Positions 31 to 62,547 of a stretch of DNA of 64,000 bases are shown one piece after another; the first letter of the stretch is position 1; each line of letters begins with the position of its first letter. The stretch is from Ruditapes philippinarum (Eukaryota), in NCBI RefSeq assembly GCF_026571515.1, contig NW_026865709.1, positions 62,001-126,000 on the forward strand, given 5' to 3'. The notes under the pieces are model-generated. The model did no database searches and was not told the DNA's origin. It worked only from the letters and a program-made list of their open reading frames with translations. The translations under genes were made by a program, and so were the position numbers.

Positions 31-3000
31 TTAAGTTGATCATGTTCCCGTTTCAAACGATTTCTTTCCGGTCTCACAGGGTTTTTTTCATCCATGGCAC
101 GTTCGCTTGTTTTTGTTGTCCTGCAATTATGTATTTTGATTGTTACAAACGGTTCTTATTTTCTGTTATTATATGGTATTACTATTGTGACATTAGGAAA
201 TGCTTAAATACATTAAATATAAAATTCTCTGACCAAAAAGTATGAAAATTAATTAAAACAAGCATTATTGATAGATATAGTTTATTATAAACTTTTTGAA
301 AATATGCCTTTTATGTCAAGTTCTTTTTAAAGAAACTTATTTGCATGATGTAACCCATACTTATCTAGCTGTTTTATCTTATCATTTCTTTCTTGAAGTT
401 GATCTTTCAGCTGTTGCAATTCTTTGTTCCGCTCTTGTTCTGCTTTATGTTTGTCAAACTGGGTCCTTAAACAATAAAAATCGCTTATTAAGAGGTCTGT
501 CAAATCCAATAATATTGCAAGGAATACATCGATTTCTTAAAGTCTTTTAAAAATATAAGATAAAACTTCTTTTTTCTCTCTATTTCATTTTCTATTACAT
601 TCAAAACGAATTCTTTCGGGTTTCGCAGGGAATTTTTCATCAATGTCAAGTTCCCTTGCATATTTTCTCATTTTCTGTTATCAGGCATTCCTATTGTGAC
701 ATTAGTTGTTTTTGTTTCTTTTGAATCAAACATTATTCGAGCATACATAAAGTGATAATTTTGTTTCTGTTTTGTAATAGATATACCATTGCTGTGTTGA
801 CGATTTCTGGGTTTGCGTAAATTATACCATAATCACGTGACCTTTCTTATGCCTTAACCTCACGAGACGAAGTCGAGTGAGGTTGCATAAGAAAGGTCAC
901 GTGATTATGGTATAATTTACGCAAACCCAGAAATCGTCAACGCACCAATAGTGTATCTGTTTTAACCTATAGCTCCGCCCAGAAACACTTACTCTGTCGA
1001 TCTTCAAAACTGAAAATTATACCATAGTCTGGGTATGGTATAATTTACGGTTATTGGAAATTATACTTGGAAGAATTTTACATAAGAAGCGCTGAAGAGC
1101 TATAGGTTAATCTGTTTTAATGCATTACTTTTATTGGAGTTAAGTTTGTTTCTCATAGCTATGGTGTAATTTTGTTTCTGTTTTCCGGACAAAATTAATG
1201 ATATCAATACCTAAGTTTCTTAATGTTTCCGTAATATAAGGCATTAATTTTTGTTTTGTTTGTTTATCACAGGAGTGTAATATATGTTATTAAAAGACTA
1301 AATTACACTAGTGTAAAAAATATACAAATAACGCGACTGAAACTTATAAGACAACAATAACACTGTCTCCGGAACTACAAGACATATATCAGAAACATCA
1401 CACTATCACTGTCTCTGGAACTGCAAGGCATATATCAGAAAAAACACAGTCACTGTCTCCGGGGCTACAAGAGCATATATCAGAAACATCACACTGTCAA
1501 TTTCTCCGGAACTTCAAGGCATATACTTAAACACCACACTGTCAATGTCTCCGGAAATACAAGGCATATATCAAAAACACTACACTGTCAAATTCTCTGG
1601 AACTACAAGGCATAAATCAGAAACACCACACTGTCAATGTCTCCGGAACTACAAGGCATAACTCAGAAACGCCACACTGTCAAATTCTCCGGAACTACAA
1701 GGCATATATCAGAAACGCCACACTGTCAATGTCTCTGGAACTACAAGGCATAACTCAGATACACCACACTGTCAAATTGTCCGGAACTACAAGGCATAAC
1801 TCAGAAACACCACACTGTCAATGTCTCTGGAACTACAAGGCATAACTCAGAAACATCACACTGTCAATGTCTCCCGAACTACAAGGCATAACTCAGAAAC
1901 ACCACACTGTCAATGTCTCTGGAACTACAAGGCATAACTCAGAAACGCCACACTGTCAAATTCTCCGGAACTACAAGGCATATATCAGAAACGCCACACT
2001 GTCAATGTCTCCGAAACTACAAGGCATAACTCAGAAACACCACACTGTCAAATTCTCCGGAACTACAAGGCATATATCAGAAACGCCACACTGTCAATGT
2101 CTCTGGAACTTCAAGGCATAACTCAGAAACACCACACTTTCAATGTCTCTGGAACTACAAGGCATAACTCAGAAACGCCACACTGTCAAATTCTCCGGAA
2201 CTACAAGGCATATATCAGAAACGCCACACTGTCAATGTCTCTGGAACTTCAAGGCATAAATCAGAAACACCACACTGTCAATGTCTCCGAAACTACAAGG
2301 CATAACTCAGAAACACCACACTGTCAAATTCTCCGGAAATACAAGGCATAACTCAGAAACACAACACTGTCAAATTCTCCGGAAATACAAGGCATATATC
2401 AAAAACACCACACTGTCAATGTCTCTGGAACTACAAGGCATAAATCAGAAACACCACACTATCAAATTCTCCGGAACTACAAGGCATAACTCAGAAACAC
2501 CACACTGTCAAATTCTACGGAAATACAAGACATATATCAAAAACACCACACTGTCAAATTCTCCGGAACTACAAGGCATAACTCAGAAACACCACACTGT
2601 CAAATTCTCCGGAAATACAAGGCATATATCAAAAACGCCACACTGTCAATGTCTCTGGAACTACAAGGCATAAATCAGAAACACGACACTGTCAATGTCT
2701 CCGGAACTACAAGGCATAACTAAGAAACATGACACTGTCAATGTCTCTGGAACTACAAGGCATAACTCAGAAACACCACACTGTCAATGTCTCTTGAACT
2801 ACAAGGCATAACTCAGAAACACCAGACTGTCAATGTCTCCGGAACTACAAGGCATAACTCAGAAACACGACACTGTCAATGTCTCTGGAACTACAAGGCA
2901 TAACTCAGAAACAACACACTGTCAATGTCTCTGGAACTACAAGGCATAACTCAGATCACCACACTGTCAATGTCTCCTTAACTACAAGGCATCAATCAGA

Positions 3001-6000
3001 AACGCCACACTGTCAATGTCTCCGGAACTACAAGGAATTAAATCTTAAACACCACACTGTCAATGTCTCCGGGACTACAAGGTATATGTCAGATACATCA
3101 CACTGTTAATGTCTCTGGAACTACAAGAGCATAACTCAGAAACACCACACTGTAAATGTTTCCTGAACTACAAGGCATAACTCAGAAACACCACACTGTA
3201 AATGTCTCCTGAACTACAAGGCATAAATCAGAAACGCCACACTGTAAATGTCTCCGGAACTACAAGGCATAAATCAGAAACATCACACTGTCAATGTCTC
3301 TGGAACTATAAGGCATAAATCAGAAACGCCACACTGTCAAATTCTCCGGAACTACAAGGCATAAATCAAAACACGACACTGTCAATGTCTCTGGAACTAC
3401 AAGGCATAACTCAGAAACACCACACTGTCAAATTCTCCGGAACTACAAGGCATAAATCAGAAACGCCACACTGTCAAATGTCTCCGGAACTACAAGGCAT
3501 AAATCAGAAACACCACACTGTCAATGTCTCTGGAACTACAAGGCATAAATCAGAAACATCACACTGTCAATGTCTCTGGAACTACAAGGCATAAATCAGA
3601 AACACCACACTGTCAATGTCTCTGGAACTACAAGGCATAAATCAGAAACGCCACACTGTCAATGTCTCCGGAACTACAAGGCATAAATCAGAAACACCAC
3701 ACTGTCAATGTCTCCGGAACTACAAGGCATAAATCAGAAACACCACACTGTCAATGTCTCCGGAACTACAAGGCATAACTCAGAAACGCCACACTGTCAA
3801 ATTCTCCGGAACTACAAGCTATATAACAAAAACACCACACTATAACTTACTAAGAGAAGTCGATTGAAACGTACTCTAGTCACATATTCATGTCAGATGT
3901 GAACTTCAAATCTATTTTTAAAATTGTTGTCCGTTCAATCAAATCCACAGTTTTTATTGTAATGTTAATACATTAAGAAAATGTAAAATATTAGCTGACA
4001 TATATCATTGCATGTACATTTTGTTTTGCATATTTGTGACGTCAACAACTGTGACAGCACAAGTATATGTATTGATCTCAAATTTACAAGATGATTTATG
4101 TCTCTGAGAATTTAAAGAAACAAAAGATATATTGAAGATAGATTATAACGTCGAATAAAACATTTCAATAAAATAGACAAGTGATATAAATGTATTCAAA
4201 TGCAACAATTGGCACTATTTTATCTACCCATCCTCTTTAACTGCTGACATTCAAACAGCGTTAAAGAGGCCAAGTATGACAACTTAATAAAATTGGAATA
4301 TTTAAAGGCTTATTCACTTGGCGTGATAAAAGTCTTAATATATTGACTTTAAAAACTGATCAAATACACGGCACATCTTTGTATTTTTATAACCAAATAA
4401 TCAAAACTAAACACATACCACGTACTTACCTTTCTAAAATCTTAGTATCATTGTCTTTTGTGTTTATGTTTTGATTGTCATTTACTGTTGTCTTCTTTTC
4501 TGTTGCTTGATTTTTAAAATCTTCAGCACTGTTTTTACCATTACCATTTACAGCCATCGCGTTTCTAAAAAAAAATTCATGAGAATTTGTTATTTGAAAA
4601 AGAGAATGATTTCATTTTCTAAAATAATCAACATACGTAAATACATATTAAAATATATTATGTATTCCCTATGGTTCTGCAATTAACATAATAACATATT
4701 AGAATATATTATTTATTCCCCATGTTTCCGTAATTAACATAATTACATATTAGAAAATATTATTTATTCCCTATATTCCGTAATTAACATAATTACATAT
4801 TAGAACATATTATTTTTCCCCATGTTTCCGTAATTAACATAATTACATATTAGAATATATTATTTATTCCCCATGTTTCCGTAATTAACATCCTTACATA
4901 TTAGAACATATTATTGATTCCCCATGTTTCCGTAATTAACATAATTACATATTAGAACATATTATTTATTCCATATGTTTCCGTAATTAACATAATTACA
5001 TATTAGAACATATTATTTATTCCCCAAATTTCCGTAATTAACATAATTACATATTAGAACATATTATTTATTCCCTATGTTTCCGTCATTAACATAATTA
5101 CACATAAGAACATATTATTTATTCTTCATGTTTTCGTTATAAACATACTTACATATTAGAAAATATTATTTTTCCCCATGTTTCCGTAATTAACATAATT
5201 ACATATTAGAATATATTATTTATTCCCCATGTTTCCGTAATTAACATCCTTACATATTAGAACATATTATTGATTCCCCATGTTTCCGTAATTAACATAA
5301 TTACATATAAGAACATATTATTATTCTCTATGTTTCCGTAATTAACATAATAACATATAAGAACATATTATTTATTTTTCATGTTTCCGTAATTAACAAT
5401 TACATATTAGAACATATTATTTTTTCCCATGTTTCCGTAATTAAAAAGATTACATATTAGAACATATTATTGATTCCCCATGTTTCCGTAATTAACATCC
5501 TTGCATATTAGAACATATTATTTATTCCCCATGTTTCCGTTATTAACATAATTACATATTAGAACATACTATAGTTCCCTATATTTCCGTAAGATGCCAC
5601 TGATGAATAAATAAAATGAATGCAGTGCAAACTACACACTAAATTGTATTATGAATATTTTGATACTGAATTTATTTATCCATTTATGGACAAACCCAAT
5701 TGACAATCGCAACAGCTCGCCTCTAAGGCTAAACATTTTTACAATTTTCGAAGATGTTTACAAAATGCTGCATTTTGCATTAAACCATAATAAACGTGTC
5801 CCAAGTATGCACAATCAGTATTAATATAATCCTGATCTTGATCTGAATAGTCTTACTTACGATTATGACATTTTCTGTTTCATGAATTAACGAAAACTAG
5901 CGCTAACGTCTTAGTAAATGCCCCCCCCCCCCACTCCCACTGGTTGGTGCCATGACCTTTAACCTCAGACCTTCAAATAGTCTAGCGGGTTAATGCTAAA

Positions 6001-9000
6001 GAGCATTTACAGACTGAAAATATATTCTGAAAATATGAGCTTTGTGTCTATGTAGTGACCCCAGGACAGAACCATTCAATTGTTTATCATTTGTAATTTT
6101 TTGAAGAGGGTCCCACAAGGCGATTTACCGAACAACATTTAAGTTCTTGAAATGGCAGTTTTTCCAAAAAATACTTAAAATATACTTTCTATGTAAAGCC
6201 CGTCTTCCACAGAACACACGGTTTATACGGTTGGCCACCCGTGTAAACCGTTACATACAGCCAACCAACCCGTGGCGTTATCCGAATTACACTCGGGCTA
6301 TTCGGTGTATCCGTGAAGCCGTGTATATTTTTAAAAACTTTAAAAAATGGTACGGATGAAATGTCCGTGATGATCGTATAAGCACCCTGCAATATCGTAA
6401 GAACCGTTGAGTCCGTATGAGACCCTATATAAACCGTATTTGAAATCCCCCTCCCGATTTAGCCCAACCGTCAAAATCTATATAAATCGTAGGAAACGTT
6501 CGGGCCCTCCCCCCATCCTACACCCAACCCCGTTTAAAACCCGAATGTAACACGAACACGGTACGATTCACACGGGTGCACACACGGTTTAATACGATCG
6601 CCATACGACCAAAACGTTTCAATTACGAATCATACATGGCATACACGGTATAGTACGGGTGAACACGGTCTCACACGGCCTCGAACGGTCAGACACGGCC
6701 TCTACGTCAGTACGAACATTACAACAAAAAACACAAATACCTGCTGCCACCCTCAACTGCTAGATCTACCCAGAGTACTTGCAGCATCACACTAGAATGC
6801 ATCGAAAGAAAAAGATTTCCATGCACAGAAGGAATATAAGAAGGGTCATCCAGGTCCGCCGAGCACTTCAACCTGCTGACCCTACCGAGCCTGATGAGCT
6901 GGGGATCTAACAATGTCTATCAGTCTGATCATAGTTTCTTACTCTATTGCATCTGCCATTGTTTTATATAACAATTATTCACATATATAGGCTTTTCTTC
7001 GTTGAAAGTTAGAAAATTTATGAAGCCAAACCATCCAAATGGGTCAATTTATATCAAAACATACACGAATGTGTGATAATTCGAGCATAACTCGAACAAT
7101 AGTCGGCGGGACCCTATGTAAACCTTGTGAAAGTCAAGTAAATCGTGTTAAAGTCGTGTTTAATCGTGCCAGACTGTACTAGACCATACTTGGAACCGTA
7201 CAACAATCGTATGTATTCGTATGCAAATCATGTTCAAACCATGCTCGACCGAGTATGTCCGTGCTTTATTCGTACATACTCCCTTACCAACTAATCCCAA
7301 GGCATGGTTGGAGCTAAATACTCGTACCAGTCAATCCGTGTATAACAGAGTATATATGGAGGGTGATTTATGCCAAAATTACATCTTGCTTTCTTACGTT
7401 ACATCGTGCTTTCTAACTTGTACATCGTGCTTTCTAACTTTCCATTTGCACTTATGGGAATATATAAAAAACGATTTAACCAATTTTTATATTTATTAAT
7501 GAAACTCTGAAGGTCAAATTATATTTCCAGCTGACAATGACAGACTAGACAGTTTTGACATTTTTTTTTTCTCAGAATCAGCTGATTTTGGCAGCAGTTC
7601 CTTCAGTTTTAAGCTGACACTGTGAACAAGAACCTGGGGCCGTATTCATAAAGCATCTTAGTGAATAATTTCAACTTAGTAAAAAAGACATTTTTTGGAC
7701 AAGTTGAATTTAAAAAATCTAACGTGTGTACAAAATTAGTTTGAAAATAGGCAAGAAAATGTCCTAATTAATAAAAACACATTAAAAATGTTGGGGATGG
7801 TCACAGGTATTGGAAATAAGCCATGTCAAAATTTAAGAACTTTTCAAGAGGATGAAATATTTTAATAAGAAGTTTTTTTATGACCCAAGCACTTTGAACA
7901 ATGTTGAACAACTGTTCTATTTTATAATTATTTTGTTGATGAAAAAAAAATTCTAAAACCTTTGATTTGGAAATGTGCAACTTGTCATTGTCAGCTGGAA
8001 ATTTAATTTGACCTACAGAGTTTCATTAATAAATATAAAAATCGGTTAAATTGTTTTGTATAATTTCCCATAAGTGCAAATGGAAATTTTAAAACAAAGG
8101 GACGTAACTTGGTAAACTCAATCCGAACCGCAATACGGACTTTACCGAGAATATAACTGTAGCGCCACCTGTTAGCATAATTTGGGTGTCACATATTATT
8201 ACACCAGATGTCGCGTTGTATTATGCTTGCTGCATTCGGCTTTCGGCTATGCGCATTCTAACTTATGACATTCGTCATTCAAGCTGAGTAAATAGACCCA
8301 AATACAAACAGTTGCAGGTTAATTTATTGAATTCATATACCAGATCAACAAATGAATAATAATTGATCATTAAATAACGACATCAACATAAAATTAAGCA
8401 AGTTGCACACAGCAGAAAGCATAATGTGCATGTAAGAAAGCAACATGTAAAAGTCAGAATGCAAGATGTATATGTCAGAATGCATAATGTACAAGTTAGA
8501 AAGCACGATGTACAAGTTAGAAAGCACGATGTAACGTAAGAAAGCAAGATGTAATTTTGGCATAAATCACCCTCCATAAGTATAAATCATATGGGAACCG
8601 TGTGGCCAACCGTGTTCTGTTTGAGACGGGCTTTAGCCTATATAAACATAGTTACCCCTGTACACATTTTGGACCAAGGGCTGTAATTTAAACAAATATG
8701 GTAAACACCCACAAGAAGATGTACATTTAACACTTCTCACAGCTCAGTTTGTTTGTGATTTCCTTCCACATTTATACTGTAGTGACTTGAAAAGCAGTTT
8801 TCGCAGTTTTCGTAAAGCAGATTTAGAAATTTACTTTTAATTTGCATGTCAATATTTTCCTTTTATTTAGTTATCAAAAAGTCAATGATAATAATTCATA
8901 ATCTCTATATAAAGTAAGGGACCCCTGAGGCGAGGCCAATTTTAACCCCATGGTTTATGCCAAATATCTAAGCTTTAGCCTGAGAAGTAGAATAGTTTTT

Positions 9001-11244
9001 ACACTATACATATATGGAAAACGCATGACCCCTGGGGCTGGGTCAATTTTAACAAAAGGTCTATAATTTGAACATCTTTGTTGAGTTTTATTAGATAATG
9101 CTAAACACAAAATATCTAGGATCTAGGCCTTGCACTTTCAGAGCAGATATTTTTTAAAGATTTCATTTTTAACCAATTGAACAATTTTATTAGAGCTTTA
9201 TGAACATTCCAGGGAAATTACAGCAAATTTGCGCGGTGGTTTCAAAGGAGAAGTGGTTTGAAAAACATTGACGACGTACGCATGGACGCACTGACGGAAG
9301 ACGGACGCCGGACAAATTGTGATCACAAAAGCTCACCTTGAGTACGTTGTGCTCCGTTGAGCTAAAAACAAAGAAACAAATAGAATATAACGCCGAAATA
9401 TGAAACAGACAAAAACATTCAATTTAGGTAAAGAAATAAGCGTTAAAACAAAATAAAACAAAATAAAACAAAATAGTAGAATAGGATTTACTTGTTTTGC
9501 TCTATAACTATATTTTCGGTGCTCGTAAATGTCGTCTGTTCTTTTATATCCGTCTGTGAAGCATGGCGTTTTGCTCCTCCTTCATTATTTGAGCCTTCAG
9601 TTGCGTACTTCATATGTGCATCCTGGCTGCTCTTTTCCTTCCTTTAATCAGGTAAAACTTGATTATTTTTCTATAAGATGCATGCCTTACCAAGTGTCAA
9701 ATTATAGCAAATTCTCAAACATTCGTATTCAAATGGGGACTTTATATACAAAGTAACAGTATAAAAGGAATGATTAAACTAATCGCCTTATGTATTTAAA
9801 TACCGAGATTATATCACTTTATTCACCCTATGTTCTGCATATATGGCAATGATTTATATTAGTTTTAAATTGGAAGGATGTGTATAAAATCACTGTATTT
9901 GTTTTCAGCATCTAAACATAAAATACTAGAACATTTGTTGACATTTGGTACTTATTTAATATTATTTTTACTATCACGGTCCTTTGTTCCTGTTTTGTCT
10001 TTGTCAGAGTTTTTCGTTGTTGACTTGTCAACATTTTGAGAGCTAGTTTCAGCAACAGATTCCACTGCAGTATATTGTCTAAAACGTTTTTAATACTTGA
10101 ATTATAATATTTGTATTATAGAAGTATATTATATTTTACACAACATTCCTTTTAAATGAATATTATGCGGACACAAAAATCATCATGCGCTTTTTTGTTA
10201 GTTAAGCTTTCATGTGCATGTGAATTTTTATTCATCATACTATTGTCCGTAACTTTTTAATCAGTTGAAAGGGTATCAGGACTTTTTCAACAAATTTAGA
10301 CATGTGCCGAAATATGAAGCATGTACGACATTAAGCTCTTTAAGTGAACGATCTATAACTTTATTACCCCTCGCATCGTATCTCATACTACTAAAATATG
10401 TTTGTATCATGTGTAAGGGAATATTATTGTTATAATATGATGTCGAAGCGTCCGAAAGTGTCCCTATGATTGCGTTAAACTTTGTTTTTGTAATAATGTC
10501 ACGACTAAGCACCAGCCTATTCAATGATATATGCATAGTTCTAAGTGATCAAGTTACCGTCGATTAAAGATAATCAAAATGAATCAATATCTAAATCAAA
10601 TTTTCATTCAGCAGAATTTTAAATATAAGCTAATACGTTAAGTTTGTTAAACTGAATAATGAGCTAACATATTATACTGGTACAAAATTGAAATATGTTT
10701 TAGAACGATATGGAGCACGCATATATCTTATATCAGTCTGTACGAACGACATATGTTTTGAATGTCACTCAAGCTTCAAATTCCAACATATACATTAAGT
10801 ATTTTGCTATATGTCCGTTTTTGTTGACGTATTCTCTGTTAATGTCCAGGTAGTTAAATAACAAGGCAAATTGTTATAATTCCGAACTTAATTCGATAGA
10901 GAATTCGAATAACGAACGTGTGTGCTTATTTCCGGCCAGATCAAACCGAACCTTAAAGAAATATTTTCAATTTGCCATTTTTGGCGACCTTTGGTTCCTA
11001 ATATTTCAGCTCGTTATTTGATATTTGTAAAACGCATTTATACCAAATGCTATGCTAACTTAAGTTTGTCATTAAAGAGCAAATGTTCTGCTTAATGCAA
11101 GTCTGTGAAACGATATAAAAAATTTTTTTTATAAAATGGTACATCATTTATACTTCCATACCTGTTCTCTGGTGCATCTTTGTTAGCAAATGTTGTATAG
11201 CCGCCTTCATCATCAGATTCGATTGTAGAATTTCGACATCCCAT
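31..11244 (-). CDS. 5' part of a multi-exon coiled-coil gene ('gene 0'), probably a fourth Mieap-domain paralogue; 3' end lies outside the window
   Basis: Hand-spliced exons with AG/GT boundaries: 11244-11162 (aaaccATGG; MGCRNSTIESDDEGGYTTFANKDAPEN), 9641-9492 (150 nt), 4564-4430 (135 nt), 465-361 (105 nt; TQFDKHKAEQERNKELQQLKDQLQERNDKIKQLD), 120-31 (90 nt; TTKTSERAMDEKNPVRPERNRLKREHDQL). All junctions are phase 2 and join in frame without stops. The last two exons and their introns are homologous to 58115-59036 in the Mieap-domain gene at 55012-62547. The Mieap domain itself is not in the window. Confidence 0.65.
779..1110. mobile_element. Foldback (palindromic) non-autonomous element
   Basis: Near-perfect inverted arms at about 797-862 and 876-941 around a short GAGACGAAGTCGA loop, followed by a second inverted pair TTAACCTATAGCTC (962-975) and GAGCTATAGGTTAA (1097-1110) enclosing another copy of the AAATTATACCATA motif. 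Superfamily not assignable. Confidence 0.7.
1360..3845. repeat. Minisatellite, 46-bp unit, about 54 copies, in an intron of gene 0
   Basis: Unit CACACTGTCAATGTCTCCGGAACTACAAGGCATAACTCAGAAACAC repeated head-to-tail; period measured at 1631 to 1677. Confidence 0.97.
4640..5592. repeat. Minisatellite, 50-51-bp unit, about 19 copies
   Basis: Unit ATTACATATTAGAACATATTATTTATTCCCCATGTTTCCGTAATTAACATA in tandem, starting about 75 nt from the acceptor of exon 4564-4430. Confidence 0.97.
7355..8578. mobile_element. IS3EU-type MITE (copy a), nested in the Harbinger-like element
   Basis: About 85-bp perfect TIR starting TATGGAGGGTGATTTATGCC and ending GGCATAAATCACCCTCCATA; exact 6-bp TSD AGTATA (7349-7354 and 8579-8584); 21-bp subterminal repeats. 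Confidence 0.85.
7440..8085. repeat. Inner inverted repeat with about 100-bp arms, inside IS3EU-type copy a
   Basis: 7440-7542 (TTCCATTTGCACTTATGGGAA...CCAGCTGACAATGACA) is the reverse complement of 7983-8085 with scattered mismatches. A GGGGCCGTATTCATAAAGCATCTTAG transposon-end-like motif lies at about 7636. Confidence 0.8.
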
Positions 11245-30400: not shown

Positions 30401-30469
30401 ACATCTACTTAATTCACTTTCTTCTTTAATATCAATAAGACAACAATTAAAATGATAACTCAAAAACAT
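24462..30469 (-). CDS. Coiled-coil protein with C-terminal Mieap (SPATA18-like) domain, 'gene 1', about 519 aa
   Basis: Exons 30469-30338, 29733-29234, 29098-28900, 28487-28407, 25528-25439, 25199-25095 and 24914-24462; GT-AG, in frame (1560 nt). Motifs RLTDNNPNIADLSDRNRPTKLAERFTELYDNQWTDAFE, ECIELCWLMAIQDPP and FDTNLLKPYTTSGTFVDYIVWPALLLYKNGPVLVKGVAQ are as I recall them from invertebrate Mieap-domain proteins. Start codon uncertain. Confidence 0.85.
25735..28125. repeat. Minisatellite, 30-bp unit, about 80 copies, filling intron 4 of gene 1
   Basis: Unit GCACATATTATAAACCCAGTAACAGTTCGA in tandem with sub-blocks of variants. Confidence 0.97.
29990..30160. repeat. Minisatellite, 16-bp unit, about 10 copies
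   Basis: GTCATAAAGTCGAATC and variants in tandem in the first coding intron of gene 1. Confidence 0.85.
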
Positions 30470-33400: not shown

Positions 33401-34194
33401 TAACTAAATACATAACAGTCGTACTGTATGAATAAAATGCTTTGTACAAACGATAAAGTAAGGCTTCAGTAAAAGAAATAATAATAAAAATGAAAAAAAA
33501 TGAAAACTAGCTCATACATATAACTTGATAAGGTATGTTTACAGGTAAATGGTCATATAAACACAAAAAGGTCATTAAATAATTGTTTAAACCATGGCTT
33601 TAGTTAGGCCGTGGTCAAAAATAGTGGTGGCACGAACATTATTGGGTGTCTTTTTTTAGCTATACACCGTGAAATATTACTTTGATAACTTAGAAATGAC
33701 CATTACGTCAGCATGACTTCAAGCTTAAATATTTCATGAAAACAAATCTTGAGAAAAGGTACTAAGAAATGTAAAAAGACTTAAGATTCAGGTTATAATT
33801 AATAATCAAGTTATGTGCGATTAATGACTGATTTTTGCAATATTTATCTCTATATTTCTACAGCAGTAACGGCTATTTTGTTTATTTTGACCCTTTTTGT
33901 ACTTTACGTGAAATATAAGCATTGTTTGCAATATGGAAATAATATATTTGTTCGCTTCACTATATTTTTCGGTTAAATACATTTATAAAATTTTCATGCA
34001 AATAAGCATGAATCAAGAGGTGTGCTGCTTTAATTTAAAAGAATATTAATTTCATATTAATAACATTCACAGTTACCTTATTTAAAATTTTCGAGACAAT
34101 GCATATCCTGTCTGTTGTTATATGTATAGATTTCTTTATCTTTTCTAAGTTTTATCAATCTTTAAAAGTATTTCATTTTTTTTTATTTTTCTAA

Positions 34195-39800: not shown

Positions 39801-42403
39801 TTATTTAAATATCACAACTATTTACAAATTATATATTGTCAACACATGTTTACCAGAAGTATCTCCAACAACGCTGCTACTGTTTCAATATCGCTGTCAA
39901 AATCGTGTTTAATCCTCTCATAAATATTGTGCCATTGATTGTTGTACAGTTGCTGGTATCTATCTGCCAGATTGAACGGTAATTCTGTTTCGCAAACATT
40001 TCTTGCAGACTCAACGTCATCTTCAGTTTTTCCTGTAGGTCTGCTTCTAAAAGAGGGATACATACAGTTGTTATTTAAATACAGAGCTTTTTACATCTAT
40101 TAACATACAAGCTGCTGTTGTTTATATGTCCCTTAATAATATTCATTCAAAATCATAAGGGAAATCTTTTAACATATTACATAACTCAAACATAAACCTT
40201 TCTTGTTTTTCGTGTAATTCGAAAAAAAGAACTCACATTACTTTCGCATCTTCAAGGTCTGCGTCAGATTCACCAGCACGATCATCGTTCGTGTGTTTTG
40301 CTTTATCGTCATGTTCATCAAATGGTTCTCCTGATTGTACAGTGTGGTATTCTTTAATAGTTTTATGGCGTTTTATTTTAAAATTCCTTGTATCCTCCCC
40401 ATCATAATCATCATAATTTCCCTGATCATCTGTATAATGTGCACTATTTCCTTTATCATCGTTAAATGAATGATGACCCTCTAGTCCGTCTGCATCAATT
40501 TTGCCCGTTAGTTCATCAAATGTACTGTTACTTTCATTTATTGCCGTGTTATCTAATTTACTCATTTCGCTTTTAACATTGATGCTACCCGACGGTATAA
40601 GATCTCCTGTAAGCTCAGGTACGTTGCTTTGATCTTTATTTTCTGTGCATAATTCTCCTGACACAGTCTCTGTTTGATTATCTTTTCTTTGGTCACAACT
40701 GTTTAAATCTAGTTCTTTTGCTATTTTTTGTACTTCTTGTTCTGCGGTCTGAACTTTAAGCTTTTGTTCCTTAATAATCTCATCATATCTTTTTTCAGTA
40801 TCTGACAACTTATTTTTCCATTCCCGGATGTCACAGTCGTATTTATTCTTTAGCATTTCAATGTCCCTTTGAAGTTTTTGAACATCTTGTTCGTATGATA
40901 TCATTTGTTTTCTGTCATCAATTAGTCTTGCAACGTCCCGTCTTAAATTATTCCTTTCATTGCGATACCGCTTACAAGTAGATTCTGAGTCAGCTAAGCG
41001 TCTTTCCAGGTCTGTTACCTTCTTTCTTGATTCTTCTAATTCATATTTTGCTTTTTCTGCAATCTATTCAGATGTAGATCTATGTAATTACCGTATTATA
41101 ACTATCTCTTAATCTGTCAAATTTAAACGTTACTATAAAATGTTGTTTTGCATTTTTGCTGACATACAGCTGATTAAATGAAGTTTCCGTGGTAAAAACA
41201 TTTATAAACCTACTGTCTGTAAAACATATTTTGATATTTGAAAAGCATTTGTCATACCAGCGAACTAAATTCAAGACATAATACATAATGTATGTTTTTG
41301 TCAGATACAATGAAGCTCATCATTTTCAATTTTTATATAAACATGTCTTAACACGTAGATAACATAATTAAAACGTTTAAAACTCGCCTTACTATCATAT
41401 AACTCTTTTATGGTCAGACTGATATTAAGGTATGACCCCCATGCATTTCCTTCTCTTTAAAAAGTATTCAAATAGGCTAGAATAACTGAAAAGCTGTATT
41501 TAATCTGAAGGCGTGGATTAAAACTCCAGAAGGGTCAAGCTTAATTTTTTCCTTTCTTCTTTTAGCATTATTTATGTATCTCTCAGACCCCTCTTGGAAA
41601 ATGTTTAGTTCTAATTATATAGAATGCAATTATTATAGGTATTAATTGGCTTAACTGCTAAATTAAATAACAAAAAATATGGTACCTGACAATTTCAAAG
41701 TCTAATGAAATCAACAGTACACTGTGAATTTATACAATGAATAATATTTGACAAGTCCAGCCAACATACAAATGCAAATTTAGGCAAACTTTGAAAACAG
41801 TCCCCTTTTTGGTAAATATCAAGGATATTTTGAAAAAGGCTCTCTAAGTAGGAAAATGGTAAAACAAGTGTTTAACATTGGTGGGATAGGGTATATATTA
41901 TAAAAAGAAACAATCATTTTCTTATGTGAGTTATAAGGTAAATGTTTTTTTTTTCAACAATTATCAGAGGGAAAACATTTTTTATGATGATGACTTTATA
42001 AATTATTTAGAGTTTCCTTATTTCTGAAATAGGAACCTTCTAATAGCCAAGCTAGTTCAGTAAACAATGTCTATATCTCGTAAATCGTACAGTAAATTTT
42101 GTTTAACCTTAACCCTAGATGTCCTTTGAGGCATATAACTGACCTTTGTTGTCAATTTTACAGTTACTTATAGTGACGATTAGGGGGTCATACCTTCATC
42201 GAAGGAAATGCAATGACTTTAGAAATTATCTTGATATGTACCTTCTTATCTTCTTTGTAGTTCTCACATATTTTCATTGTATCTTGAAGTTCGTTATTGA
42301 TGTTTGCCAGCTTAACTCTTAAGTGTTCCGTTGCATCTGGCGAATCACTTTGAGTCTCAATTTTATCATCTCCGGTCACTGTGTCGTTTTTAGTCCCCGA
42401 CAT
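36807..42403 (-). CDS. Divergent coiled-coil protein with Mieap-like domain and long C-terminal tail, 'gene 2', about 841 aa
   Basis: Exons 42403-42242, 41063-40237, 40046-39854, 39583-39503, 38574-38485, 38334-38230 and 37874-36807; GT-AG, in frame (2526 nt). Same intron phases and the same 81/90/105-nt exon sizes as gene 1. Motifs LADRYQQLYNNQW, ECFEFCWLLAIQDDP and FDLDIYNPYNNSGPYIKYVVWPALQYTSNGSIFAKGVAE. Confidence 0.88.
41429..42194. mobile_element. Possible Kolobok-like MITE in the first coding intron of gene 2
   Basis: 12-bp TIR GGTATGACCCCC / GGGGGTCATACC, flanked by TTAA and TTCA. Confidence 0.5.
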
Positions 42404-48558: not shown

Positions 48559-48679
48559 ATAAATAACACATAGGTTTGCGGGTAACAGTAAAATTATCAT
48601 CCCTCGTAAAAATACTGTTTACAGTATTTTTCTCGAGATGATATATTTACTGTTACCCACAAACCCACGTGTTATTTAT
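48559..48679. repeat. Short foldback palindrome
   Basis: ATAAATAACAC...GGTTTGCGGGTAACAGTAAA pairs with TTTACTGTTACCCACAAACC...GTGTTATTTAT around an inner AAAAATACTGT/ACAGTATTTTT pair. Confidence 0.75.
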
Positions 48680-48914
48680 ATAGTATGTATTTCGACAAAT
48701 ATTCAAAAGAACAAAAACAAAAAAACAATAAATCCATGAAATATCCGCAGATATGTTTGTTGATAAAAGAGTTAAATATTTTTTTTCAATTCATATATAT
48801 GCACATAAAAAACAGAAAAATAAATGACAGCAAATGTTATCGTTTCTGGTGAATGAGAATCAAAGTTTATTAAGAACGGGAAGAGTCAATGTCAATCATT
48901 CTGACATGTATAAT

Positions 48915-55011: not shown

Positions 55012-58000
55012 CTAAGTGTCAAGACTTAGTGTAGATGTTAATGTCGTCTCTTTATGGTACATAGATTTTGCTTGCCTCTTACCTGTCTGGCTACCATCCT
55101 TTTTTCTTAACTGAAACAATTTATATTTCTTACATTGCACAACACCTTTGCAAAGAAGTGGCCCATCCTTTTCTAAAAAGACAGCAGGCCACACAACGAA
55201 CTCTACATATGGACCAGACTCTATATATTCTTTGAAAGTATTTCCATCAAATATTTGGTCTGTTTTGCAGTTTTCAAGCGTTAGATATAATGGTGGGTCT
55301 TGTATTGCCATCAACCAGCATAATTCGAGACATTGCTGTACAAAAGGTTTGAATGCTTCGGATTCCAACAATGAGGATGGAAGGTGTTTGATCTTTCTTG
55401 ATAGAGTAACTTTGTATTCCTGTATAATTATATACATATATATGACAAAAAAGTTTCAAGGTCCGATAAACATTTTGTAAAATTTGCCAATATGTAATTT
55501 GCATTGCTTTATTTCATTCAAATACATCGGGGAAGTCGAAAACATTTGTATTTTCTCGCAAAACAACTAGGAAACAGAATTAAAAATTGAAGAATTGGTG
55601 AAATTGAGACAATATGCCATCATTTAAGTACCCGACTTAAGATAAAATGAACCATGAATGAATCTTTACTGAAGACAATTAAATATCATTGAAGTACTTT
55701 TACCTAATTTAACATAAAAGAACCTGTACTAAAGTCAATAGGCTATCATAAAAGTACCTTTACTAAACGCAATAAGCTATCATAAAAAGCCTGTACTACG
55801 TACAAAATGCTATCGTTAAAGTACCTTTACTAAAGAAAATATACTATCATAAAAATACTTTTCCTAAAGACATAAACCATCATGAAAGTACCTGTTAAAA
55901 TACAATAAACTGTTATAAAAGTACTTACCAGAACACAATAAGCGATCATAAATATACATATTCTAAAGATAGTATTATCAAACTAAAGTCAATATGCTAT
56001 TTTAAAGTACCTTTTCTAAGTCCATGCTTGGTTGTGGAACTTTTTTCCTCTGATCTTTTAATTGCTTTATGAGATCTCGTACTTTCTCTCTATTATGCGA
56101 ACTTTTCTGAAAATAACTCTTAAAATTTTGAAATGTTATTTTATGTTTACATCTTTTATGTAATAAAGTCATGTTTATATGCTTTTGATTAAATTGATGA
56201 CTATACAAAATCGTTTTAATTTTTTATACAGAAAAGTAAATTCTGACTGAATTATATAGTGATGAAGGAGTATTTGCAAAGAGGGAAGAAATCGATTTAC
56301 CCCGTAGAAATCTTCAAGTACTTTACGAATTGTATCTAGTTGTTTCGTGGCAGTTTCTGTCGATAGTGTGAATGCTTCCTAGATGAAAACAGAAACAAAC
56401 AGACATTTTCCTAGTTCAAATAAAAATTTATAAAAGTGTGATCAGGTTTAGTATAAAGAATACCATCGTCAATTTAGTGCGTGTTGTAATTTGACGTACA
56501 CGACTATAATGATTTTAAGTGAGAATACTATAAAGTTCCTAAGTTTAACAATATGTAAATGACCTTTGCCAAACCATAAAAATATATATAAAGATAAATA
56601 GTTAAGATAATAGTTTTGAAGCACCTGATGCTAGTTTATTTTATGAAAAATGCTTAGATAAATTTCGTTTTTTATTTCATTCTTAATCATGTATATCAAA
56701 CAGACAATGAATATGATTTTTGATTATGAAAATATTTTTTAATGATTGTTATAAACGTCATGTATGTAAAGGAGACGTAACAAGTAAATGAATAGATAAT
56801 AATATTTTCATTTTCAAGTACGGGCATACTTTTTCAGAACTTCAAATAAAAAAGCATGACTAAACTTATATAGAAGAAAACGTCGAAATAAGATTTTCTT
56901 TAGGGTATCCTTACACCGGGCGCATTTTGTTTAATATATTGGGTACCCAAAGAGGATATTTAATGTGTATATTACCTTTCTGGCGAGGTTATATCAATTA
57001 ATTTCGTCGATCAATATCCAATCAAAAAGGGGGAAATCTGTATAAATTATTACTTTTTTCCATTATACTTATTAGGTCAGACACTTTTACATGTATTATA
57101 GAAAAAGATTTTACAATCATATATTTGTTTATGTTTTTTTTATATATATATAAAGTGTAAGCATACAACAAGAATAGCCAGTAATGTATCTATGATGCGT
57201 TTTTCTACCGCATCTTTAAAGACATCAACAGTTTGTAGGTATGCGAAGGCATCCGTCCATTGGTTATCGTATAAGTCTGCATACTTTTCAGCAAGTTTGG
57301 TTGGTCTATTCTGGTCACTAAGATCTGCTATGTTAGCATTATTATCAGTTAGTCGTACACCTGTCATTTCACGTAATCTGAAATTATCGTTATATAGCAA
57401 TGTATGCTTCGTTAAAAACTAATTGTTTTTCCATGCAGTACAATATCATTATGCAGAATATTTGAAGAATCTTGAAACGCATGCTAATTCATAAAATCAT
57501 TTCAACTTCATGCAAGATTCACCCTATCAAGAAAACACACACACAAACACACACACGCACGCACGCACACACAAGCACAAAAACAACTAGGATTAATAAA
57601 GTTAATATTATTAATATTGTAGAAGACAATCATTATCCCGAGAGAAATATAAGGCAAAGCTTTCCATTTGCAAACATTTGATTAGCTAAAAACAATATAA
57701 TTATGTCATAATTTTTTAAATATTGCCTTCCTTCCAAAGTTTTATTGCATCTGTCCTGTGTTTGTTTGACTTCCTCCTCCAGTTCGTTATTTGTCCTAAC
57801 AAATACAAAGCAATTGACATATAGTTAAGTTTCTTTATTTAATAAAGCATTGCTGTCGATACCCGAGTTTGTTTACATGATATAAAAGGAATATAAAGAT
57901 ACCAAAGATGTGGTCGACTGGATGTATGATTGTTTGATACGGCAATGCTTAGATACATTAAACATAAAATTCTCTGATAAAATGGTATGAATATTGATTT

Positions 58001-61000
58001 GAAAACAAACATTATGTTTAAATAATATATATAATTAACTATTTTCAAATATGCCTTTTATGTCAAGTTCTTTTTTAAAGAAACTTGTTTGCATGATTTT
58101 AATGTAACCCATACTCTGCGAGCTGTTGTATCTTATCATTTCCTTTTCGAAGTTGATCTTTCAGCTGTTGCAATTCTTTGTTCTTTTCTTCAGTTTCTGC
58201 TTTAAGCTTGTCAAACTGGGTCCTTAAACAATACAAAGAGCTTATTACGAATCATGTCAAATTCAATTATAACGCAAAAATTATATCGATATTAGAATAC
58301 ACCTTTCAAAAACGACAGTTAGATAATAGTTAATTATGTTACATTTAAACTTACTTAAGTTGACAACGTTCCAGTTTCAAACGATTTCTTTCGGGTCTCG
58401 CAGGGTAGTTTCCAGCCATGTCAAATTCGATTGTTTTTATTTTCCTGCAATAATGTATTTTGATTGTTACAAACGGTTCTAATGTTCTTTTATTATAAGG
58501 AATTACTATTGTGACATTAGGAAATGCTTAGATACATTATACATAAAATTATCTGCCCAAATAGTATGAATATTGATTAAAACAAACATTATGCTTAAAT
58601 ATAGTATATTATTAACTATTTTCAAATATGCCTTTTATGTCAAGTTCTTTTTTAAAGAAACTTTTTTGCATGATTTTAATGTATCCCATACTTTTCGAGC
58701 TGTTTCATCTTATCATTTCTTTCTTTAAGTTGATATTTCAGCTGTTGCAATTCTTTGTTCTGTTCTTCATTTTCTGCTTTAAGTTTGTCAAACTGGGTCC
58801 TTAAACAATAGAAATCGCTTATTCAGAGTCAAGTCAAATCCAAATATAATGCAAAGAATAAATCGATTTTCGAATACACTTATCAATTCAAGTCCTTAAC
58901 AATACAGTAAGATTATAGCAATTATATTACATTTAAACTTACTTACTTAAATTGATAAAGTTTCTGTTTCAAATTATTTCTTTTGGATTTTACAGGGAAT
59001 TTTTTATCGATGTCAAGTCCCCTTGTCTTAATGTTCCTATAATAATGTATTTTATTGTTACAAACGGTTGCATAGTTTTGTCACTTTTTTTCCTCATTTT
59101 CTGTTATAAGGCATTACTATTGTGACCTTAAGAAATGTTTAGATACATTGAACATAAAATTCTCTTACGAAATAGTCTGCATATTGATTTAAAGGAACGT
59201 TATGTTTAAATATAGTACATGCATATAATAAGCCATTAATTTTACATGATTTACATCCAATTTTTCTATGCGTGTTTTTACGTTCTGAACTTATTTTCTG
59301 TGCGTGAAGTTTGATATTTATGCGTAAATCATACACATAATTGCTTGTGCGTGAAAGGGAACACTTATTTTTATCAAAACATCGGACAATGTTTTATATC
59401 ATATAACTAAGCTCTAGCTATCTCCATTTCGGAAAAAGAATAAAAAATCACCAGATTGGAGTTTATTTAGACCCCAGGGGCATAATTTGAATAATATTTG
59501 TAGTTGTCTAAAATGTTTCATGCAAAATATCTTGGTACTAGCCTTAGAAGCTTCCAAGAGGTCTTCTTGTTTGAAGTCAAAACCTAGGCTTTAGCCTGTT
59601 AAGAAAATCTATGTTTCCAAAGGGCAGATCCAATTTGACCCAAGGTTTATAAATTTAGAATGCTTGGTTTAAATGTCGACGGCATTTTTGTACATATTTA
59701 TAAAATACAGCTATAAGCACTTTTTTCATGTTAAACTGATAAATCCTGTGCTTAACAAGATCTGGAAAAGACCCATTTTTTGTGTGTGGATGCTAGTAAT
59801 TTACCATTTAAGACATTAAAATTGGCAATATGTTTCGTTCCTGTTTTGTTTCATGGTAAAGCTTTATAAATACGAGTAGAATATCCAATGTCTTTATAAT
59901 ATAATATGTAATTCTTCCAGAAGGATGATACAGTCTAAATACAGTAAGCCTGGATTGTTATTTTACTTGGCATACCTTAATTGTTTGTAGCATGTCCTTG
60001 TTTTTCGTAACTAAGGTTAGTTGCCAAAATGATTTTATTTTGTTTTAAAAAACTTATGCTGATAAAATCGTATTCGAACGTTTATAAGTATTTGCATATA
60101 TACTCAACACGCATTACACATTCTGCACATCTCTGAATTTGGAAGGTATTACCCTTATTTCAAACTAGGCCATATAGTCAAAATAAAAATTAAAAAACTT
60201 TCATGCACAGAAACACAAAAAGTCACAATTTCACAATAATGAAAATTAAAACCTAGGGTAACAGTATGGTTAAGTACTTTGTATTAAATTACATTTATTT
60301 AATATAAATGATAAAAAAATTGAATAAGACAATAAAACGAAAACCAATTACCCAATGCTTCAAAGTAAAAATTGAATTAAAATATATCGTACCTGTCCTG
60401 TAAAGCATCTGTTTTTGCTAAGATCGTTTTGTATTTGTCAGCAGCCTTTTCTTCTTTAAGAATGTTTTGCAAGTGCTCTAAATTTCTTCTCGCCATTTCT
60501 TCACCTTGGATCTTTTCTTTTTCAATAGTTTTACATGTAATTTCCAATTCTTTTATTCTTGCTTGGTGGCATTGATTTTCTTTTGAATATTGATTGACTT
60601 GGATCTTTAACTGCATTATTTCTGCCTGTTTTGACACAAGATCTTTTTCAACTTTCATTTTTTTCATGTTCTCATAATCTAACCTGAAAATAGTCCACCT
60701 CATACTTCAGGTTCACATTCTTCAATAAAAAAAATTGAACAGATAAATAGTATCACCTTCGGGAGCAATGAAATCAACAACACTATCTCACACATACACA
60801 GTCTTGTCAAATGCGATCGAAATAACATTCACTGTAAGATATAAATCATTTCAAAGAACCCTTGTATGCAACTAAGAATATCAAATATAAGATTAAAGTT
60901 AAGCACAGCATGCAATTTATGATAAAATTCTTTGAATCCATTTTCACCTGAAATAACCAATTTTACTAACTCCGTTTTGTTTTGCCAGGGTAGCTCTAAT

Positions 61001-62547
61001 AAAAACGTGTGCAAATAAATATTCTATCTAACAGTTGCTTTAACAGAATCACTATTAAAGTAGTAATCTAAAACATCAGTTACTTAAAATATAAAGACCT
61101 ACATCTATTGCACCTTGTAGAACAAGCATGCGCAGTGTTTAGGTTTAGGGGTTTTGTTTTCATAAAATTTATATTAATTAATATCTGAATATTATTTTGT
61201 ATTATCCATAATGATGTAATACTAAAAATAATTTTCTATATAATGATAAGGTCTAGATGAAAATGCCTTTATAAAGCGTTGAGGTTTTTTTTTTCATGTA
61301 TACGCACTAACTACATTATATATGCATATTATCCAGTCTGTATAAAATGCATTGAAAGTCTGTATTTTTACAGTAATTTCCCTTTTTAATGATTCATACG
61401 GAAAAATAATACTATTGCGCTTGGAACGTCTGATAGCATACATTACTTTCCCCTTCTAAAGTAAATATGACCGCTGGAATAAATAAGCTGGGAAGAAATA
61501 GAAAAGCAGAGAGATTTGTTCTGAATTTCAAAATATTTTTTTCAAAATTTCAACTTTAACCAATTTCGTTCGATTTTTTCTAACATTATTGACAGAACAG
61601 CGACACTGTTAATGCCATATGTCATTTTTCATTGTTAATGGCAAAGAAATATCTCATTAGGCGCCTCAGTGGAACCACCGATATTTCGTAAGCGAGAACG
61701 TTAACTGCCTGACATAAAAAAAGAATAAAGTTTCATAACCTCTGATCCCCTTTCAAAATTCCATTTTATTTAGTTCCGCCCATTGTTTTCTCGTTTAGCG
61801 CACACGCACTTTTTACTTGGGGACCTTATGCTGCTTTTCATGGAATTGCACTAACGTGTCACATTGAAGGTTCCATGATAAGAAAGCCTTATAAGAAAGT
61901 ATTGGGAAAAACAAATAAAATGGAATTTTGTAAAAAATAGGTAACAAGAACATTAAAAACAAACAAAAAATCAAGAATAGGTTTTTAACGTGGAAGTCGA
62001 CAGTCCGGACGAAAAAGGAGGAATTGCAACTGGTCGGTGAAAAACACTTTGCCTCGGTGGGGGCATTTGTACATAACGTAATCGGTGCGTTACAGGTTTC
62101 TGATTAATATGACGCTTATGATGGCAGCTATAAAACAAGATCCGTACTTAAAAAAAGTGTATATTTTTCTGGTCATTCTAGCTAAATCTTACTTATTTGT
62201 AAAAAGAAAAACCGCATAAACCTTCAATTCTTACAATGAAAAATATAACCCCTTACGTTAATTGCATCAATATTTTATAGGATCATTAAAATGGTAAATA
62301 AAAACCTATTAGAAGCTGATTTATTGCCAATTCCTACTATCTCATGGTTCTTCACAAACCGGTAATGAAGCTTGAAGCAAGTGCCACACATGTATCTACC
62401 ATAGACGCCACAATTAAAACAGAAGTACAATGCCGGTCTGGGTTCTCCATCGGCAACACAATGAAAGCATTTGTCTGTATCATCATCATTATCATTACCC
62501 CTAACTTCGTCACTTCCACATTCGTTTAAACTACTTGACATAGCCAT
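55012..62547 (-). CDS. B-box zinc finger + coiled-coil + Mieap-domain protein, 'gene 3', about 596 aa
   Basis: Exons 62547-62306 (CFHC..FCFNC..MCGTC..H..H B-box), 60683-60393, 59036-58947, 58799-58692, 58444-58355, 58222-58115, 57795-57727, 57377-57167, 56378-56301, 56106-56011 and 55419-55012; 1791 nt in frame if one GC-AG intron is accepted. Motifs RLTDNNANIADLSDQNRPTKLAEKYADLYDNQWTDAF, QCLELCWLMAIQDPP and FDGNTFKEYIESGPYVEFVVWPAVFLEKDGPLLCKGVVQ. Confidence 0.85.
55700..56020. repeat. Degenerate ~33-bp tandem repeat abutting and overlapping an exon donor site of gene 3
   Basis: CTATCATAAAAGTACCTTTACTAAAG-like units recur about 9 times; the last unit (AAAGTACCTTTTCTAAG, 56004-56020) contains the real donor of exon 56106-56011. 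Confidence 0.75.
57944..59215. repeat. Tandem duplication of a ~580-590-bp two-exon unit; homologous to 1-710
   Basis: Exon A at 58115 and 58692 (offset 577), exon B at 58355 and 58947 (offset 592); intron sequence such as AAATATGCCTTTTATGTCAAGTTCTTTTT is shared with about 300-330. Confidence 0.92.

What the first reader, a model, noticed from the sequence alone, without database searches (positions are those of the whole stretch)
31..62547. Paralogues keep a common C-terminal domain but carry four different N-termini
Gene 0 starts with MGCRNS plus low-complexity spacer exons; gene 1 has a plain coiled coil; gene 2 has a coiled coil plus a ~150-aa acidic disordered insert; gene 3 starts with a B-box zinc finger. 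In genes 1-3 the conserved core begins after a phase-2 intron at the same position (R|LSKAMG, I|SRPTG, R|LREMTG), which acts as a common junction for variable front ends. A constant core with variable targeting or sensor modules in a tandem array resembles diversifying immune or stress receptor families (inference). Gene 0's core is inferred, not seen.
Basis: partly seen in the sequence, partly recalled or inferred. Interest (0 to 1): 0.72.

Follow-up and report, generated by a model that had tools for sequence, protein, structure and literature searches.

The report
Clam Mieap genes swapping front modules
Four neighbouring clam genes of the expanded "mitochondria-eating protein" family have different front ends, and one is a recent DNA hybrid whose zinc-finger front is otherwise found on atypical Hsp70 genes; the shared core is predicted to fold like the Hsp70 helper GrpE, so these proteins are possibly the missing helpers of that Hsp70 class.

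Summary
Four MIEAP-domain (PF16026) genes carry MGC, coiled-coil, coiled-coil-plus-acidic and B-box fronts. Gene 0's core lies just left of the window. The phase-2 intron before the core is present in 16 of 16 family genes examined.

Fronts mostly follow the core tree (old subfamilies), no positive selection was seen, and only gene 3 is a real swap. Its 3' half is a recent duplicate of gene 0 (dS 0.23). Its B-box and first coiled-coil exons are closest (66-76%) to the fronts of four HSPA12-type Hsp70 genes. The break lies about 2 kb upstream of the core junction.

Whether gene 3 is one transcript is open: the frame is open, but RefSeq splits it, one donor is GC and one exon is deleted.

Also found: the predicted core fold best matches GrpE (moderate scores, none significant by E-value). 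Gene 0 sits head-to-head with an HSPA12 gene, a pairing seen on some other contigs but not in general. The likeliest role, inferred and untested, is a differently targeted cofactor of HSPA12.

The parts
31..11244 (-). Gene 0, front half: MGCRNS exon 11244-11162, low-complexity exons 9641-9492 and 4564-4430, coiled-coil exons 465-361 and 120-31. Three more coiled-coil exons and the MIEAP core continue left of the window (contig C14196 about 61.9-56.6 kb).
   Evidence: RefSeq XP_060571875 (P0002)
11162..11244 (-). Gene 0 first coding exon. Gly2, Cys3 and Ser6 fit the myristoylation/palmitoylation pattern (motif recalled, not tested).
   Evidence: MG+Cys starts in 15 of 147 family representatives and in Mercenaria P0007
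16884..20697 (+). HSPA12-type Hsp70 gene with an intact-looking phosphate-1 motif, head-to-head with gene 0 (start codons about 5.6 kb apart).
24462..30469 (-). Gene 1: short first exon, 500-nt coiled-coil exon, five core exons; 519 aa.
   Evidence: RNA joints 29233/29097 and 28899/28486 in one contig of run X4
36807..42403 (-). Gene 2: coiled coil plus acidic insert, divergent core (long branch, NIADLSD-type motif lost), long C-terminal tail; 841 aa.
   Evidence: only a 5' joint 42419/42709 seen in RNA
55012..57377 (-). Gene 3 MIEAP core (four exons), 84% identical to gene 0's core; predicted helical bundle plus GrpE-like beta wing.
57727..57795 (-). Gene 3 exon whose donor is GC where gene 0 has GT. 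The next exon of gene 0 (about 210 nt) is missing from gene 3.
58115..59216 (-). Gene 3 coiled-coil exons of gene 0 type (tandem exon-pair repeats, 72-87% nucleotide identity to gene 0 including introns).
59217..59875 (.). Junction interval in a phase-2 intron: gene 0 similarity ends on one side and HSPA12-locus similarity begins on the other. It holds fragments of dispersed repeats (40 other matches among the scored candidates).
60393..60683 (-). Gene 3 first coiled-coil exon (CC1), 66-76% identical to the CC1 exon of four B-box-HSPA12 genes.
62306..62547 (-). Gene 3 B-box exon, 70-73% identical to the first exon of four HSPA12 genes and about 50% to a separate B-box-MIEAP subfamily.

Best explanation
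This is a tandem array of MIEAP-domain genes from old subfamilies in which one gene is a recent hybrid of a gene 0 duplicate and a B-box/coiled-coil front shared with HSPA12-type Hsp70 genes, and the common core is predicted to be a GrpE-like module that likely serves those Hsp70s as a cofactor. How it arose: gene 0 was duplicated (dS about 0.23; shown). Recombination in a phase-2 intron then replaced the MGC front by two exons from the B-box-CC1 lineage (shown at DNA level; order and donor inferred). Because the front exons are phase 2-2, the frame survives such swaps and exon losses (shown). How it likely works (inferred): front = address (lipid anchor, B-box assembly, or plain coiled coil), coiled coil = stalk, helical bundle plus beta wing = a surface that binds the ATPase domain of an HSPA12 and promotes or blocks nucleotide exchange. 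A B-box-CC front shared between MIEAP proteins and ATPase-domain-only HSPA12 proteins would bring the two together.
For: Hybrid: gene 3 matches gene 0 at 72-87% nucleotide identity, introns included, from the last exon up to window 59216, and matches HSPA12 loci at 74-80% between 59876 and 62629. Core tree: gene 3 is sister to gene 0 (100/99) inside a clade with Mercenaria MGC-type proteins. Grouping it with the four B-box-MIEAP cores is rejected, p-AU 0.0003. Front trees: gene 3 groups with the four HSPA12 fronts (CC1 100/100, B-box 94/93, both 100/100). Selection: core dN/dS 0.37 (0.22-0.68), front 0.39-0.50. B-box-CC-MIEAP exists as single RefSeq proteins (P0172-P0175) and in a Logan-derived fragment (P0171). 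Fold: AlphaFold2 pLDDT 88. The top 3 of 48,161 chains are GrpE (Z 6.7-6.8, rmsd 3.4-4.8, 105-120 aligned; next 5.8). For the helix-plus-wing part alone the top 4 are GrpE (Z 5.6-6.1, rmsd 3.0-4.6, 74-81 of 86 aligned; next 3.0), and Foldseek ranks 1-10 are all GrpE (probability 0.82-0.98; first unrelated row 0.01). The domain order matches GrpE as described in PMC12987570 (passages). Both families expanded in bivalves (PMC8382680 table). Head-to-head MIEAP/HSPA12 neighbours occur on 5 of 7 contigs known to hold both.
Against: No transcript joining gene 3's B-box to its core was seen. RefSeq splits the gene, one donor is GC with a poor match to the consensus, and one exon is deleted. The GrpE match is moderate: Z under 8, no Foldseek E-value under 0.05, and no sequence-level match (PF01025 does not hit these genes in the genome search, and is not among the 25 families shown for 82 members). 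A shared fold shows no function. Direction of transfer is undecided: holding all MIEAP-borne fronts together is not rejected (p-AU 0.385), and the front's dS to the sampled HSPA12 genes (0.32-0.42) exceeds the gene 0/3 dS (0.23). The head-to-head pairing is not general: 0 of 14 MIEAP arrays checked upstream, 0 of 5 closest paralogues of the window's HSPA12, and 5 of 10 known adjacencies (binomial p 0.078). Human Mieap's C-terminal region is reported to direct it into cardiolipin-rich condensates, and that paper has no mention of Hsp70 or GrpE (PMC10845071).
Confidence: 0.5

Rival explanations
1. Gene 3 is a hybrid at DNA level but is decaying or split: it yields a B-box-coiled-coil protein without core and/or a core-only protein, as RefSeq annotates.
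For: Two RefSeq loci, LOC132730050 and LOC132730048. GT>GC donor and a deleted exon. Shared coiled-coil exons have dN/dS 0.93 (0.43-2.76), and gene 3's branches are longer than its relatives' in the core and B-box trees.
Against: No stop or frameshift in ten exons, and the frame stays open whether the GC donor is used or that exon is skipped. Core dN/dS is 0.37 (pairwise, so not specific to gene 3's branch). RefSeq's P0020 already crosses the hybrid junction.
Confidence: 0.4
2. The cores work like human Mieap, as phospholipid-binding scaffolds that form condensates at mitochondria or other membranes. The GrpE-like fold is a relic, and sharing a front with HSPA12 is a by-product of the two families being neighbours.
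For: Pfam MIEAP above cut-off. PMC10845071 ties the C-terminal region to cardiolipin condensates. Lipid-anchor starts occur in 15 of 147 representatives. Most arrays have no HSPA12 neighbour.
Against: It does not explain why GrpE is the best structural match in two programs or why the swap partner and several neighbours are HSPA12. The two roles need not exclude each other.
Confidence: 0.3
3. One reading: a diversifying immune or stress receptor array in which variable fronts are sensors plugged onto a constant signalling core.
For: A large family (at least 143 exon matches; 53 genes per bivalve), interchangeable phase 2-2 exons, one proven swap, and a B-box as in TRIM proteins.
Against: No ligand-binding sensor domain among 147 representatives. 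No positive selection. Fronts are mostly inherited with their cores.
Confidence: 0.12

Closest known systems
Bivalve-expanded Mieap family (Pfam PF16026; orthogroup OG24 of PMC8382680)
   Same: Core domain, tandem arrays, large copy number.
   Different: The passages read report the expansion only. The front classes, the gene 3 hybrid and the link to HSPA12 are not in them.
Human Mieap/SPATA18 (PMC10845071)
   Same: Hydrophilic, disordered and coiled-coil front plus a structured C-terminal domain.
   Different: No lipid-anchor or B-box front is described in the passages read; function there is cardiolipin condensates, untested for the clam proteins.
GrpE / GrpEL1 nucleotide exchange factors (Pfam PF01025; PDB 1dkg, 4ani, 9bls, 3a6m)
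   Same: Order of parts (disordered front, helical stalk, helical domain, beta wing) and the predicted helix-plus-wing fold.
   Different: 9-15% identity, no profile match, a larger helical region, variable fronts; dimerisation and exchange activity not known.
HSPA12A/B-type Hsp70s, expanded in bivalves (PMC11268181, PMC8382680 OG10)
   Same: Four HSPA12 genes share the B-box and CC1 exons with gene 3; one HSPA12 gene lies inside this array.
   Different: The B-box-bearing ones (P0021, P0022) end after the ATPase domain and have altered nucleotide-binding motifs relative to their paralogues.
TRIM / B-box-coiled-coil proteins
   Same: B-box followed by coiled coil and a variable C-terminal domain.
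   Different: No RING; a single weak B-box match; the C-terminal domain is MIEAP or HSPA12.
Plant GIL1/IRKI C-terminal domain (PF24994) and unnamed fungal, ciliate and actinomycete clusters
   Same: Predicted structures align to the core at TM 0.55-0.67.
   Different: Leads only; under the Atlas's bar for naming.

Membership tests
MIEAP family (PF16026) | Pfam match above curated cut-off (27 bits) | tested here: met
   P0001 79.8 bits, P0002 86 bits. Genes 1 and 2 were scanned only exon by exon (15-20 bits); their cores are 66% and 37-38% identical to P0043 and P0079/P0040, which pass.
MIEAP family (PF16026) | Phase-2 intron just before the core | tested here: met
   16 of 16 genes examined on 9 contigs; read from genomic AG positions, RNA-confirmed for gene 1 only.
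Human Mieap/SPATA18 function | Mitochondrial location, cardiolipin-associated condensates | not testable with these tools
   Described in PMC10845071.
GrpE family (PF01025) | Sequence profile match | tested here: not met
   The genome search with PF01025 gave 4 matches at E<=1, none on this contig and only one over cut-off.
GrpE family (PF01025) | Helix plus beta-wing fold at the C-terminus | tested here: met
   Predicted model only: Z 5.6-6.1 against next 3.0; Foldseek probability 0.82-0.98 but E 0.05-0.68.
GrpE family (PF01025) | Homodimer through a helical stalk | not tested
   A coiled coil precedes the core in all four genes; no dimer was modelled.
GrpE family (PF01025) | Nucleotide exchange on an Hsp70 | not testable with these tools
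   Needs a biochemical assay.
TRIM/RBCC | RING finger before the B-box | tested here: not met
   The B-box exon carries the start codon; P0020 and P0172-P0175 show no RING.
TRIM/RBCC | B-box | tested here: inconclusive
   PF00643 17.5 bits, under the 24.1 cut-off; six Cys and two His are invariant in 9 of 9 copies.
Diversifying immune receptor arrays | Recognisable ligand-binding sensor domain | tested here: not met
   None among 147 representatives at E<=1e-5.
Diversifying immune receptor arrays | Positive selection in variable parts | tested here: inconclusive
   Pairwise dN/dS 0.39-0.50 for the front, 0.93 for shared coiled coil, 1.93 (0.45-6.14) for the tail; low power.

The most novel reading that the evidence does not exclude
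MIEAP/SPATA18-domain proteins are a eukaryotic GrpE-derived cofactor family dedicated to HSPA12-type Hsp70s. Bivalves co-expanded the two families, keep some as head-to-head pairs, and shuffle the same B-box/coiled-coil or lipid-anchor address modules between cofactor and ATPase to build matched pairs at different cell sites.
Probability: 0.3. Interest if true: 0.85.

Novelty: new variant of a known kind. Interest (0 to 1): 0.6.

Why it matters
HSPA12-type Hsp70s and MIEAP-domain proteins are two of the largest gene-family expansions in bivalves and are invoked to explain stress tolerance (PMC8382680, PMC11268181). A GrpE-like fold plus exon traffic between the two families gives a direct bench test (binding and ADP release) that would also apply to human SPATA18 and HSPA12A/B. 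Gene 3 is a dated, mappable case of exon shuffling across gene families. If the cofactor idea fails, what remains is an ordinary expanded family with one recent chimera.

Tried and rejected
RNA for gene 3: not obtained, so the B-box-to-core link is untested by reads. RNA on genes 1-2 was shallow, and most laid reads were intronic repeats.

Complex prediction of the gene 3 core (P0001 1-226) with an HSPA12 ATPase domain (P0021 285-708): no verdict (score 0.27, mark 0.34; alignments not used; controls not folded). It is evidence neither way, and the partner was chosen from over a hundred paralogues.

Sequence-level GrpE link: none by Pfam; the PDB profile search gave only coiled-coil matches among the 60 of 162 rows shown. 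A bacterial HSPA12 neighbourhood scan could not be run with the alignment, so the fungal and bacterial pairing was not checked.

Contig co-location of MIEAP and HSPA12 hits: 4 of 65 against 0.3-1.2 expected. Not relied on, because contig length confounds it and both lists are incomplete.

A second swap in Mercenaria (P0006 front resembling gene 2's front): 29% identity, E 0.001 between coiled coils. Not accepted.

Assembly artefact for gene 0/gene 3 similarity: rejected, since divergence (14-28% nucleotide, dS 0.23) is far above the few differences seen between reads and assembly in gene 1 exons and the fronts differ.

Literature: Mieap+bivalve+expansion 1 paper; HSPA12+B-box+bivalve 0; Mieap+GrpE 1 paper, listing only; SPATA18+HSPA12A 5, listings only; listings showed nothing on front swapping. 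No supplements were read; subscription papers are outside the library.
Full report
Setting. The window is G000:C14196:62001-126000 of a 1.4-Gb genome. Proteins that match it letter for letter are named by their sources as RefSeq models of Ruditapes philippinarum. PF16026 (MIEAP) gave 143 exon matches among 150 of 202 candidates scored, so the family is large. PMC8382680 (passages) already reports this expansion: 807 genes, 53 per bivalve, alongside an Hsp70 group at 68 per bivalve.

Check of the observation. All four fronts and the three quoted junctions are in the sequence. Joined exon models are open from start to stop. Gene 0's core lies 1.7-5.4 kb left of the window with the same phase-2 junction, and RefSeq P0002 joins it to the MGCRNS exon. 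A phase-2 acceptor stands at the same place in 16 of 16 genes examined. RNA laid on window 28200-43200 showed gene 1's coiled-coil-to-core joint in one contig of run X4 and only a 5' joint for gene 2; the other three runs showed no listed coding joint.

How the fronts relate to the cores. A tree was built from 50 core rows: 4 window genes and 46 database rows. The database rows included all 15 MG+Cys starts among the 147 representatives and 17 others picked by hand. It places 16 of 18 MGC-type rows in one group (85/82, not starred), five B-box rows in another (100/99), and genes 1 and 2 in a coiled-coil clade (99/92). The fronts of genes 1 and 2 best match P0043 (36%, E 5e-23) and P0040 (33%, E 1e-15), both in that clade. 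So three of the four fronts are old, vertically inherited types. Across the 147 representatives Pfam found MIEAP in 144, a B-box in 1, and otherwise only coiled-coil or helical families.

Gene 3 is the exception. Its core is sister to gene 0 (100/99), 84% identical, dS 0.23, dN/dS 0.37. Nucleotide similarity to gene 0 includes introns and runs from the last exon to window 59216. Its first two exons have other relatives: the B-box search returned two HSPA12A-like proteins (P0021, P0022; 70% and 66%). Four genomic loci carry B-box, CC1, a third coiled-coil exon and then HSPA12 exons (C7612, C9030 twice, C8064). Similarity to these loci includes intron sequence down to 59876. The junction therefore lies in 59217-59875, a phase-2 intron with dispersed-repeat fragments; repeat-mediated recombination is possible but not shown.

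A second, older group of B-box-CC-MIEAP genes exists: RefSeq P0172-P0175, with a Mercenaria relative P0176 that reaches the start of the core. Gene 3 does not belong to it by its core (p-AU 0.0003; group named after the first tree was seen). In that group CC1 leads straight into the core, which suggests the module began on MIEAP genes and moved to HSPA12 (inference). Whether gene 3 took it back from an HSPA12 gene or descends from the lineage that donated it is undecided (p-AU 0.385; dS 0.32-0.42 to the sampled HSPA12 fronts). Either route needs at least two swaps, one of them across families.

Is gene 3 one protein? RefSeq gives two: P0020 (284 aa), which crosses the hybrid junction and stops by reading into an intron, and P0001 (260 aa, core only). 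Compared with gene 0, gene 3 has GC instead of GT at one donor and lacks the last coiled-coil exon. Using the GC donor gives 566 aa; skipping that exon gives 543 aa; neither has a stop. No reads were obtained for this stretch, so I put one protein at roughly even odds.

What the core is. AlphaFold2 with 113 sequences gave pLDDT 88, a helical bundle followed by a small beta domain. Foldseek ranked GrpE first, second and fifth without a significant E-value. VIA-align put three GrpE chains on top of 48,161 (Z 6.7-6.8, next 5.8); the tool warns that Z under 8 can be a common arrangement. Folding residues 141-226 alone (pLDDT 94) sharpened the contrast: the top 4 are GrpE (Z 5.6-6.1, next 3.0) and Foldseek ranks 1-10 are GrpE (probability 0.82-0.98, E 0.05-0.68). 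GrpE is described as disordered front, helical stalk, short helical domain and beta wing, with the wing engaging the Hsp70 ATPase domain (PMC12987570, passages). There is no sequence-level match. The Atlas lists look-alikes in plants (PF24994), fungi, ciliates and actinomycetes (leads only).

Link to HSPA12. An HSPA12 gene sits head-to-head with gene 0. The same orientation occurs on C14781, C9370, C4942 and, 37 kb apart, C3689. An HSPA12 on C3689 is the closest intact relative found of the B-box-HSPA12 group (89% in one exon). These contigs were picked because they hold both families. An unbiased look found no divergent HSPA12 upstream of 14 MIEAP arrays (9 with a full 40 kb; a 15th could not be fetched) and no MIEAP upstream of the 5 closest paralogues of the window's HSPA12. 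Overall 5 of 10 adjacencies are divergent (p 0.078): suggestive only. The B-box-HSPA12 proteins end after the ATPase domain and depart from their paralogues at nucleotide-binding motifs (the motif roles are recalled). Earlier AI notes of this scan describe HSPA12/GrpE-MIEAP-like head-to-head pairs in fungi. I saw them after the fold searches; they prompted the orientation check, and I did not test the fungal claims.

Mechanism. Shown: array, junctions, hybrid origin of gene 3, fronts shared with HSPA12. Predicted: GrpE-like core. Inferred: the front sets location or assembly, the coiled coil is the stalk, and the wing binds an HSPA12 ATPase domain as exchange factor or decoy. The rival, a lipid-binding condensate scaffold as in human Mieap (PMC10845071, passages; no occurrence of GrpE or Hsp70 in its main text), remains live. 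The immune-receptor reading has no direct support.

Novelty and verdict. The expansion is known and exon shuffling through symmetric exons is an established process. The exchange of a front between MIEAP and HSPA12 genes and the GrpE-like fold did not appear in nine literature searches (four papers read as passages, the rest as listings; no supplements). New variant of a known kind; interest 0.6, mostly because the cofactor idea is cheap to test and reaches human SPATA18 and HSPA12A/B.

Noticed in passing
window 30505-30515 (-): Gene 1's first exon appears to have a frameshift a few codons after an upstream ATG: the frame before the used Met aligns with the N-terminus of its relative P0043, so the protein may be about 15 aa short or the assembly wrong.
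   Followed up: partly
window 9953-10078 (-): Candidate phase 2-2 low-complexity exon of gene 0, not in the RefSeq model; possibly alternative.
   Followed up: partly
window about 560-680 and 58940-59040 (-): Degenerate copies of a coiled-coil exon in genes 0 and 3 that both RefSeq models skip; the coiled coil grows by tandem repeats of an exon pair.
   Followed up: partly
P0003 (Mercenaria, 1612 aa): Looks like two neighbouring genes merged by annotation, a gene 1-like one followed by an MGC-type one, the same order as here.
   Followed up: partly
G000:C15749:9-32 kb (L064, L148, L149): Another B-box, coiled-coil, HSPA12 arrangement without CC1 and with a different, degenerate HSPA12; possibly an independent fusion.
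   Followed up: partly
P0172-P0175; C13632, C8064, C9413: The B-box-MIEAP subfamily ends right after the beta wing in a short lysine tail, a possible membrane-binding or targeting signal.
   Followed up: no
G000:C8064:128.8-130.0 kb and 113-115 kb: CC1 exon duplicated with one broken copy, and an orphan pair of terminal HSPA12 exons upstream: local rearrangement is ongoing.
   Followed up: no
window 36810-37700 (-): Gene 2 has a roughly 295-aa tail after the wing with no Pfam match.
   Followed up: no
window 34200-35300 and 41450-42200: Intronic or intergenic repeats with many mismatched RNA reads, probably transposon fragments.
   Followed up: no
window 1364-3841, 12592-14156, 25736-28125, 48910-50595: Long minisatellite arrays in introns and spacers.
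   Followed up: no
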